A stretch of 664 bases of DNA from Escherichia coli (GTDB taxonomy: Bacteria; Pseudomonadota; Gammaproteobacteria; Enterobacterales; Enterobacteriaceae), in assembly GCF_003334255.1 (NCBI RefSeq), contig NZ_QOWU01000200.1. One strand, written 5' to 3'. Position 1 is the first letter of the stretch. Every line of letters starts with the position of its first letter. The position numbers and the translations under genes are program-made. The notes beneath the pieces were generated by a model. The model had not been told where the DNA came from. It did no database searches and was given only the letters and a program-made list of their open reading frames with translations. Positions 1 to 664 of the stretch are shown one piece after another.

Positions 1-664
1 GGGTGGTGAAGGGCGTGCGCTTCAGTCTGCGCCTGACCAGTGGAAGCGGTGAGAACAGCCGCCTGCTGACCACCGCCATCACCGCAGACACGGAGCACCG
101 TTTCAGTGGCCTGCCTCTCGGGGAATACACCCTGACGGTCAGGGCGATTAACAGCTATGGCCAGCAGGGCGAACCCGCCACCACCACGTTCCGGATTAAT
201 GCGCCTGCAGCACCGGCCACCATTGAGCTGACGCCGGGGTATTTTCAGATAACGGCGGTACCGCGTCTTGCGGTGTATGACCCGACGGTGCAGTTTGAGT
301 TCTGGTTTTCGGAGGCAAAAATTGCAGACGCCGCACAGGTGGAAACCTCTGCCCGTTATCTGGGGACCGGCAGTCAGTGGAGTGTCTCCGGTCCGCACAT
401 TAAGCCCGGAAAGGATTTCTGGTTTTATGTGCGCAGCGTCAACCTGGTGGGTAAATCTGCTTTTGTGGAAGCCAGTGGACGGGCGAGCAATGATGCTGCG
501 GGCTATCTGGAACTTTTCCGGGAAAAGATAGGAAAAACGCATCTGGCAGAGGCGCTGTGGGCAGAGATTGACAACAGTCAGCTGAAGGACGAGATGGCGG
601 AAATGCAGACCACCATCACAGAAACCCGCAATGAAATCACGCAGACGGTCAGTAAAACGCTGGA
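1..664 (+). CDS. J: Internal fragment (partial at both ends) of a lambdoid phage tail tip / host specificity protein J (central tail fibre). Codon phase: first complete codon at nt 3, last complete codon ends at nt 662.
   Basis: Seen in sequence: the frame starting at nt 3 has no stop in 220 codons, while frame +1 stops at nt 7-9 (TGA) and frame +2 at nt 50-52 (TGA); the minus strand has no ORF in the supplied track. Leu codons are 14/17 CTG, typical of expressed enterobacterial genes. From memory of phage lambda J (not searched): the translation closely matches its FN3-containing central region, e.g. '[38 protein letters not shown]', '[23 protein letters not shown]'. The FN3 signature [YF]-x-[LF]-x-V-R-[AS]-[IV]-N-x-x-G occurs twice, about 99 residues apart. 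Confidence 0.85.

What the first reader, a model, noticed from the sequence alone, without database searches (positions are those of the whole stretch)
483..664. Possible mosaic junction where the conserved FN3 region gives way to a charged helical segment ahead of the receptor-binding part of J
After '[11 protein letters not shown]' (ending about nt 509) the protein becomes '[51 protein letters not shown]'. This stretch is rich in E/K/T/Q, free of Pro and Gly after the first few residues, and consistent with an alpha-helical, possibly trimeric coiled-coil segment of the central fibre. As I recall, lambda J is very similar up to the 'GYL' motif and then differs in sequence. That would place a recombination breakpoint near nt 500-520, as expected for the host-range-determining distal part of lambdoid J proteins. 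By my manual count, GC falls from about 65% in nt 1-240 to about 53% in nt 481-664, which fits a junction but could simply reflect the Lys/Glu/Ile/Thr-rich composition. The receptor-binding domain lies beyond the window, so receptor specificity cannot be inferred.
Basis: partly seen in the sequence, partly recalled or inferred. Interest (0 to 1): 0.45.

Follow-up and report, generated by a model that had tools for sequence, protein, structure and literature searches.

The report
Variable helical shaft of tail-fibre protein J
The flagged stretch is the start of the known alpha-helical shaft of a lambda-like prophage tail-tip protein J; it is a real domain boundary where related phages have swapped DNA, but the gene itself is ordinary and already annotated.

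Summary
The window is an internal piece (codons 645-864) of gene J from an E. coli lambdoid prophage, 99.8% identical to annotated RefSeq J genes. Window nt ~489-664 encode the N-terminal two-thirds of the alpha-helical shaft (AHS). In solved lambda structures this three-helix bundle follows FNIII-2 and partly refolds to beta-sheet on receptor binding, opening the tail tip. The last 84 nt (28 codons) are absent from lambda. They sit at the hinge between lambda's upper and lower AHS helices and contain part of a 29-residue repeat unit. That unit builds AHS variants of 60, 88, 132, 161 and 259 residues in related J proteins.

The "mosaic junction" idea is partly right. Across the family there is a sharp recurrent junction at nt 522-530 (permutation p 0.0005), and FNIII-2 and AHS types occur in all four combinations. 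Against lambda, however, there is no datable breakpoint. Synonymous divergence is saturated on both sides, and only protein constraint drops. The AHS+beta-prism block also swaps independently of the receptor-binding domain. The GC drop lies at nt ~240, next to another junction. The periodicity is about 3.6 residues, not heptad.

The parts
3..662 (+). Internal fragment of gene J (tip attachment / host specificity protein, central tail fibre), codons 645-864 of a 1157-codon gene
   Evidence: Frame 3 is open. The window is 99.8% identical to J of the E. coli DETEC-S792 prophage, flanked by tape measure, L, K and I upstream and lom downstream. phmmer matches lambda J 8iyk_J residues 647-838 with E 4e-74. 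The single difference from L003 (nt 641, G vs A) is a third codon position.
3..206 (+). C-terminal part of the first Ig-like/FNIII domain (FNIII-1; Pfam Ig_J, J 641-712)
   Evidence: Pfam PF24421, E 4e-26. GC is 64% and GC3 is 0.76.
210..518 (+). Second Ig-like/FNIII domain (FNIII-2; Pfam Ig_J_second, J 714-816)
   Evidence: Pfam PF24489, E 8e-39. It corresponds to lambda residues from about 713 on, the start of the gpJ713 construct.
241..316 (+). Second mosaic junction zone and GC/GC3 step, around a conserved island (nt 271-300)
   Evidence: Best breakpoints: query vs Stx1_120412 at nt 260 (85 to 99.8%), query vs F349 at nt 313 (94 to 67%), PhiR40_1 vs lambda-type genes at nt 315-319. Lowest nucleotide diversity (0.07) is at nt 271-300. 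GC falls from 64.6 to 54.2% at nt 240.
489..578 (+). Upper helix of the alpha-helical shaft (AHS), J 807-836, homologous to lambda J 809-838
   Evidence: Gap-free alignment to lambda J. Lambda residues 809-840 are the upper AHS helix in the solved structure (PMC11101478). Cryo-EM of Ur-lambda resolves gpJ only to residue 807 (PMC12617516). The segment is predicted helical.
522..530 (+). Recurrent recombination junction of the J family, 13-21 nt after the GYL codons
   Evidence: MaxChi: 2851/PhiR40_1 at nt 522 (chi2 104); lambda/STEC1575 and Ayreon/mEp460 at nt 530 (chi2 65-70); query/PhiR40_1 at nt 522 (chi2 60); all permutation p 0.0005. All four combinations F0/F2 x A2/A4 exist.
579..662 (+). 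28 codons (J 837-864) with no counterpart in lambda J, inserted at the hinge between lambda's upper and lower AHS helices. Includes the first part of a 29-residue repeat unit, of which nt ~630-664 is the part matched by the unit HMM.
   Evidence: A 28-residue gap lies between lambda T838 and E839. The long PhiR40_1 AHS aligns to lambda 810-838 and 840-933. A unit HMM built from long-form repeats matches J 854-872 with E 1e-8; 0 of 500 shuffles reach the score, and lambda scores -0.7. AF2 pLDDT is 94-98 over J 842-881. This is the most variable part of the region, with diversity 0.57-0.64.

Best explanation
Window nt ~489-664 encode the N-terminal two-thirds of the alpha-helical shaft (AHS) of protein J, the trimeric central tail fibre of a lambda-like E. 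coli prophage.

By homology with lambda, three copies of this segment form a helix bundle that clamps the three FNIII-2 domains from below and keeps the tail tip closed. When the distal receptor-binding domain binds its outer-membrane receptor, a twist travels up the beta-prism. The shaft flips and part of it refolds into beta-strands, the FNIII strings separate, and the tip opens for DNA ejection. That mechanism is shown for lambda and inferred here.

This J carries an 88-residue shaft against lambda's 60. The 28 extra residues sit at the hinge between lambda's upper and lower helices. They correspond to one copy of a 29-residue (about 8-turn) repeat unit that is present in several copies in longer natural variants (132, 161, 259 residues).

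The FNIII-2/AHS boundary is both a drop in sequence constraint and a recurrent site of homologous exchange among lambdoid J genes (junctions at nt 522-530). The AHS plus beta-prism block is reassorted independently of the hub/FNIII part and of the receptor-binding domain.
For: - Identity of the gene and domain order.
- Lambda structure and mechanism: PMC11101478, with AHS residues 809-861, upper helix 809-840, and 841-861 converting to beta. PMC12617516 resolves gpJ only to residue 807.
- Helix prediction: low-confidence model with helices over J 810-888, and a helix over J 805-897 with pLDDT up to 98.
- Amphipathic period 3.6-3.67: p 0.016/0.045 for the query AHS and p <=0.004 for the long form.
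- Length classes and the 29-residue period. Unit HMM hit in the query but not in lambda.
- Insertion site at lambda 838/840.
- Junctions. Module table.
- Diversity rises from nt 511.
- dN/dS stays below 1 in the AHS.
Against: - The trimeric bundle and its refolding are not shown for this protein; they are inferred from a homologue that is only 29-40% identical over the upper helix.
- The first AF2 model (monomer, 30 sequences) had mean pLDDT 48.
- Periodicity is not significant for the window's 51 residues alone (p 0.067).
- The internal repeat is not significant within the 88-residue form itself (p 0.21).
- Some units used to build the HMM are orthologous to the query's copy, so one search is not fully independent.
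- For this window's own lineage the evidence of exchange at this boundary is weak. MaxChi against BP-4795 gives p 0.13. Only a post hoc patch test is significant, with third-position differences of 11/28 against 25/215 (p 0.0006).
- The breakpoint set rests on 13 full genes that share ancestry, so the junction events are few.
Confidence: 0.8

Rival explanations
1. The change at GYL is only a domain boundary with relaxed constraint. The helical shaft evolves faster than the FNIII domains and gains or loses residues by slippage, with no recombination at this position.
For: Against lambda, synonymous divergence is saturated on both sides (pS 0.61 vs 0.65) and only dN rises, from 0.21 to 0.39. MaxChi finds no breakpoint at nt 500-520. 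The closest relatives are uniformly 99.8-100% identical across nt 260-664.
Against: Pairs that are 91-97% identical in FNIII-2 fall to 48-52% within a few bases at nt 522-530. All four combinations of two FNIII-2 types with two AHS types exist. Ayreon and mEp460 share hub, FNIII and RBD types but differ in AHS+CSF. Against PhiR40_1, dS jumps from 0.48 to about 1.0-1.7 and returns to 0.51.
Confidence: 0.15
2. The segment is a static canonical heptad coiled coil, a trimeric spacer of the central fibre. It marks the start of a single host-range cassette that runs to the C-terminus.
For: The segment is helical, charged and free of Pro. The distal part of J is the most divergent, with the RBD at 46-60% nt identity in most comparisons.
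Against: Period 3.5 is not significant (p 0.33-0.48), whereas 3.6-3.67 is. In lambda the shaft is a three-helix bundle that flips and partly converts to beta-strands (PMC11101478). AHS type and RBD type reassort: RBD type E occurs with short, medium-A and medium-B shafts.
Confidence: 0.05
3. The apparent junctions are artefacts of collapsed or chimeric assemblies, because E. coli genomes carry many J copies.
For: Up to 11 matching places occur per genome. Some database fragments carry odd internal duplications (spacers of 138 and 142 that repeat the YVAGIG anchor).
Against: The key sequences are complete genomes of isolated phages (PhiR40_1, Ayreon, mEp460, 2851, lambda) or complete chromosomes. 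The same junction coordinate recurs in independent pairs.
Confidence: 0.03

Closest known systems
Bacteriophage lambda gpJ (tip attachment protein J), alpha-helical shaft, residues 809-861 (PDB 8IYK, 8XCI, 8XCJ; Ge & Wang 2024, PMC11101478)
   Same: The two proteins are colinear over the full length with the same Pfam architecture and the same gene neighbourhood. The shaft sits directly after FNIII-2 and before the beta-prism. The upper helix aligns without gaps.
   Different: The shaft here is 88 residues against 60 between the GYL and YVAGIG anchors, with 28 extra residues at the upper/lower helix hinge. Identity over the upper helix is only 29-40%, and the RBD is about 35-40% identical, so the receptor is probably different and is unknown.
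F-type pyocin central fibre coiled coil that switches to a beta-prism (He et al. 2026 preprint, PMC12874032; F2 pyocin fibre PDB 25vf)
   Same: Both are helical segments between the FNIII domains and a beta-prism in a lambda-like tail tip, and both are of variable length. The long natural J variants (161 residues) reach the size of the 163-residue F7 segment. There is weak sequence similarity to the F2 pyocin fibre (E 0.0017 and 3e-5).
   Different: The published strand motif SxSxxMxxLxS is absent from the query shaft (0 hits). The preprint itself states that lambda does not show the same extensive switch. The similarity lies mostly in the lower shaft and prism, outside the window.
Mosaic tail-fibre genes of temperate phages, exchanged by homologous recombination between phages and prophages (for example De Paepe et al. 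2014, PMC3945230, listed; not read here)
   Same: Domain-sized blocks with discordant ancestry, and junctions next to conserved stretches.
   Different: Here the exchanged block is the trigger shaft plus prism rather than only the receptor-binding tip. No Chi sites are involved.

Membership tests
Lambda gpJ family (tip attachment / host specificity protein J) | Full-length colinear homology to lambda J | tested here: met
   The global alignment of the 1157 aa protein with the 1132 aa lambda J is colinear from the GKG...KGHTPREAKDNLKSTQ start to the C-terminus. The window matches 8iyk_J residues 647-838 with E 4e-74.
Lambda gpJ family (tip attachment / host specificity protein J) | Domain order Ig_J, Ig_J_second, Phage_Tail_Tip, Ig_GpJ_C | tested here: met
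   Pfam hits PF24421, PF24489, PF09327 and PF12421 occur in that order, with E 4e-26 to 7e-23 or better.
Lambda gpJ family (tip attachment / host specificity protein J) | Position in the tail gene cluster (after tape measure, M, L, K, I; before lom and stf) | tested here: met
   RefSeq annotation around the 99.8% identical copies.
Lambda gpJ family (tip attachment / host specificity protein J) | Trimer at the tail tip that binds an outer-membrane receptor | not testable with these tools
gpJ alpha-helical shaft (AHS) | Helical segment immediately after FNIII-2 and before the beta-prism | tested here: met
   The segment lies in a gap between Pfam domains (J 817-870). It aligns to lambda 809-838. 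AF2 predicts a helix over J 805-897 and helices over J 810-888.
gpJ alpha-helical shaft (AHS) | Three-helix bundle that flips and partly converts to beta-strands on receptor binding | not testable with these tools
   Known for lambda only (PMC11101478). Only monomer predictions were available here.
Canonical heptad coiled coil | Hydrophobic periodicity of 3.5 residues | tested here: not met
   Period 3.5 gives p 0.48 for the full AHS and p 0.33 for the window part. Period 3.6-3.67 gives p 0.016-0.045, and p <=0.004 in the long form.
F-pyocin-type fold-switching coiled coil | Repeated SxSxxMxxLxS pattern in the switching region | tested here: not met
   0 matches in the query and lambda shafts. 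The 1-2 matches in Ayreon and PhiR40_1 are not above shuffles.
F-pyocin-type fold-switching coiled coil | Sequence homology to a solved F-pyocin fibre over the helical region | tested here: inconclusive
   25vf_A matches with E 0.0017 (query) and 3e-5 (PhiR40_1), covering mainly the lower shaft and prism.
Recombination (mosaic) junction | Abrupt, statistically supported change of nucleotide identity at the site | tested here: met
   Met for family pairs at nt 522-530 (chi2 60-104, permutation p 0.0005). Not met for the window against lambda at nt 500-520.
Recombination (mosaic) junction | Discordant combinations of flanking types (four-gamete test) | tested here: met
   F0-A2, F0-A4, F2-A2 and F2-A4 are all present, as are A0/A2 x Z0/Z2 within the shaft.

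The most novel reading that the evidence does not exclude
The shaft of lambdoid J proteins may be a length-adjustable module built from 29-residue (8-turn) helical units that are added or lost at the hinge between the upper and lower helices. It may be exchanged together with the beta-prism as a 'trigger cassette', through a fixed junction 13-21 nt after the GYL codons, independently of the receptor-binding domain. If so, natural near-isogenic J proteins with shafts of 60, 88, 132, 161 and 259 residues would form a graded series between lambda's limited refolding and the 163-residue fold switch of F-type pyocins. Shaft length would then tune stand-off distance or stored energy.
Probability: 0.3. 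Interest if true: 0.45.

Novelty: new member of a known kind. Interest (0 to 1): 0.22.

Why it matters
The gene is a routine, already annotated prophage J gene, so the window itself adds little. The useful outcome is a precise placement of the flagged segment. It is the shaft that holds the lambda-type tail tip closed and refolds on receptor binding, a part whose role was only worked out in 2024-2026.

Two further points follow. Natural J alleles differ in shaft length by whole 29-residue units. The shaft-plus-prism block also recombines separately from the receptor-binding domain, through a narrow junction. Both are relevant to people who engineer J chimeras for host range, because the junction at nt 522-530 is a splice point that nature has used repeatedly. 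They are also relevant to those studying how non-contractile tails trigger, because the allelic series is a ready-made set of length variants.

Tried and rejected
- The blastn alignment ends at nt 517/518 and 557 first looked like separate junction classes. Protein alignment showed that all those genes carry the same short lambda-type shaft, so the ends are BLAST extension drop-offs.
- The idea that length steps are whole heptads (28 = 4 x 7) was rejected. Other steps are 44, 29 and 73, and period 3.5 is not significant.
- Chi hotspots as the cause of the junctions: there are none in any of the 13 J genes, on either strand.
- No tandem DNA repeats, Rfam families, or promoter or terminator signals above chance occur in the window. 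ORFs in other frames and on the other strand are at most 87 aa and overlap J.
- The published fold-switch motif is not present.
- The AF2 model from a 30-sequence alignment was too poor (pLDDT 48) for fold searches, so none were run.
- The GC drop as support for a junction at nt ~500 was rejected, because the step is at nt ~240.

Full report
**What the window is.** Frame 3 is open over all 664 bases, and no other frame or strand holds an ORF longer than 87 aa. The window is 99.8% identical to the gene annotated as host specificity protein J in several complete E. coli chromosomes. The one difference is a synonymous third-position change at nt 641. The gene lies in a lambda-type tail cluster, with tape measure, L, K and I upstream and lom and a side-fibre gene downstream. 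J there is 1157 codons, and the window covers codons 645-864. About 2,080 of 5,426 complete E. coli genomes hold a match, with up to 11 places per genome. The translated window matches solved lambda J (8IYK and related entries) at residues 647-838 with E 4e-74. The full proteins are colinear from end to end.

**Check of the observation.** The quoted peptide and coordinates are exact; GYL ends at nt 509. After it, Pro+Gly falls from 14.2% to 1.9% and E+K+Q+T doubles to 44%. However, nt 241-480 is already 54.2%, and GC3 runs 0.76, 0.59, 0.63. The GC step therefore sits at nt ~240. The small further fall in the last third lies in codon positions 1-2, which reflects amino-acid composition.

**What the segment is.** Pfam places Ig_J at J 641-712, Ig_J_second at J 714-816, nothing at J 817-870, Phage_Tail_Tip at J 871-998 and Ig_GpJ_C at J 1027-1157. 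[quoted passage not shown] The AHS is a bundle of three helices directly below FNIII-2, with an upper helix at residues 809-840 and a lower part at 841-861. On LamB binding the shaft flips by about 180 degrees and residues 841-861 become beta-strands. The FNIII strings then separate and the tip opens (PMC11101478). Cryo-EM of Ur-lambda resolves gpJ only to residue 807 (PMC12617516). Lambda 809 corresponds to J 807 here, which is window nt 489. The flagged stretch is therefore the N-terminal two-thirds of the AHS.

A single-sequence AF2 model of J 802-912 is one long helix over J 805-897. Its pLDDT is 94-98 for J 842-881 and 55-73 for the upper part. A 30-sequence model of J 709-1000 was poor (pLDDT 48) but also called J 810-888 helical. 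The hydrophobic period over the full shaft is 3.6-3.67 residues (p 0.016 and 0.045), not 3.5 (p 0.48). For the 51 window residues alone it is not significant (p 0.067).

**Length variation.** Between the GYL and Y[VI]AG[IL]G anchors, lambda, Fels-1, mEp460, PhiR26_1 and an Stx2c phage have 60 residues. This J and the BP-4795, 2851, F349, Ayreon and STEC1575 types have 88, and PhiR40_1 has 161. Database proteins add 132 and 259. More distant J-like proteins reach 114, 221, 241, 437 and 576. The 132, 161 and 259 forms have a clear 29-residue period, far above shuffles, while one distant lineage uses 32. Twenty-nine residues per eight turns is 3.625, which matches the measured period.

The 28 residues that this J has and lambda lacks (J 837-864, window nt 579-662) lie between lambda T838 and E839. 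That is the hinge between the upper and lower helices, and it is the same site where the 101 extra residues of PhiR40_1 sit. An HMM built only from repeats of the long forms finds one copy in this J (J 854-872, E 1e-8; 0 of 500 shuffles reach its score) and none in lambda. Some training units are orthologous to that copy, so this test is supportive rather than independent. The repeat is not detectable within the 88-residue form by self-comparison (p 0.21).

**Is there a mosaic junction?** Across the family, yes.
- Phage 2851 and PhiR40_1 are about 97% identical over nt 401-522 and 48% after it (chi2 104).
- Lambda vs STEC1575 and Ayreon vs mEp460 go from 93% to 52% at nt 530.
- This J vs PhiR40_1 breaks at nt 522.
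- All of these have permutation p 0.0005.

In 122 proteins, FNIII-2 types F0 and F2 each occur with shaft types A2 and A4. Shaft heads A0 and A2 each occur with shaft tails Z0 and Z2. Nucleotide diversity rises from nt 511 and peaks at nt 571-660.

Against lambda itself there is no breakpoint at nt 500-520. The best point is nt 313, next to a conserved island. Synonymous divergence is saturated on both sides of GYL (pS 0.61 and 0.65), and only dN doubles.

For the window's own lineage the closest relatives are uniform over nt 260-664. The only hint of exchange at this boundary is a patch at nt 495-580 against BP-4795, with third-position differences of 11/28 against 25/215 in the flanks (p 0.0006). 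That patch was chosen after looking at the data.

**Modules.** A block table shows that hub, FNIII-1, FNIII-2, AHS+prism and RBD carry discordant types. Ayreon and mEp460 share hub, FNIII and RBD types but differ in AHS+prism. RBD type E occurs with short and both medium shafts. The junction after GYL is thus the proximal edge of a shaft-plus-prism cassette, not of a single host-range cassette.

A second junction zone lies at nt ~240-316, at the FNIII-1/FNIII-2 border. There the query vs Stx1_120412 goes from 85 to 99.8%, and the query vs F349 from 94 to 67%. This zone coincides with the GC and GC3 step. No Chi sites occur in any of the 13 J genes.

**Comparison with what is known.** The closest known object is the lambda gpJ AHS, and membership in the gpJ family is met on sequence, domain order and gene context. 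The F-type pyocin fibre has a 163-residue coiled coil that converts to a beta-prism, and similar switches are predicted in many siphophage fibres (PMC12874032). That preprint notes that lambda shows only a limited version. Its strand motif is absent here. Similarity to the F2 pyocin fibre is weak and mostly lies outside the window. I therefore do not file this segment as a pyocin-type fold switch.

**Verdict.** This is an ordinary, already annotated J gene. There is a real domain boundary, a real helical shaft and a real family-level recombination junction, although the junction is at nt 522-530. There is no demonstrable breakpoint against lambda, the periodicity is not heptad, and the GC argument belongs to another junction. 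The modest extra interest lies in the 29-residue unit structure and the independent exchange of the shaft module. I did not find either described in the papers searched.

Noticed in passing
window 241-316: A stretch encoding [28 protein letters not shown] is far more conserved than its surroundings across all 13 J genes: diversity is 0.07 at nt 271-300 against 0.2-0.3 elsewhere. Several pairwise breakpoints and the GC/GC3 step lie at its edges, so it may act as a homology anchor for exchange at the FNIII-1/FNIII-2 border.
   Followed up: partly
L001:2071-4935 (phage PhiR12_2) and L009:1072-4544 (VT1-Sakai): J is interrupted in some relatives. The PhiR12_2 J ORF ends early at 954 aa with an unrelated tail and is followed by a separate small 'tail fiber protein' CDS. 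VT1-Sakai J is annotated as split by a mutation.
   Followed up: no
proteins P0226, P0243, P0257, P0265 (distant J-like proteins): The spacer between the FNIII-2-like and prism-like blocks reaches 221-576 residues. P0226 has a 32-residue rather than a 29-residue period. P0243 and P0265 contain Gly/Pro-rich, apparently non-helical inserts within the spacer.
   Followed up: partly
proteins P0128 and one 142-residue-spacer fragment: These shaft regions repeat a block that includes the YVAGIG anchor (spacers of 138 and 142). They could be real internal duplications or assembly artefacts of multi-prophage genomes.
   Followed up: no
L003:3071 (start of J) and the equivalents in L005-L008: The J genes of this prophage group start with GTG (VGKGGG...), whereas lambda-type genes start with ATG (MGKGSS...). 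An untranslated gap of about 250 nt separates gene I from J in this group, against about 60 nt in lambda.
   Followed up: no
window 495-580: Against BP-4795 this short patch straddling the FNIII-2/AHS boundary has 39% third-position differences against 12% in the flanks. That looks like a short conversion tract, but the patch was chosen after inspection.
   Followed up: partly
E. coli genomes: The window matches 6,576 places in 2,079 of 5,426 complete genomes, with a median of 2 and up to 11 per genome. Eighteen of the places are on plasmids. This provides abundant substrate for exchange between J copies within one cell.
   Followed up: no
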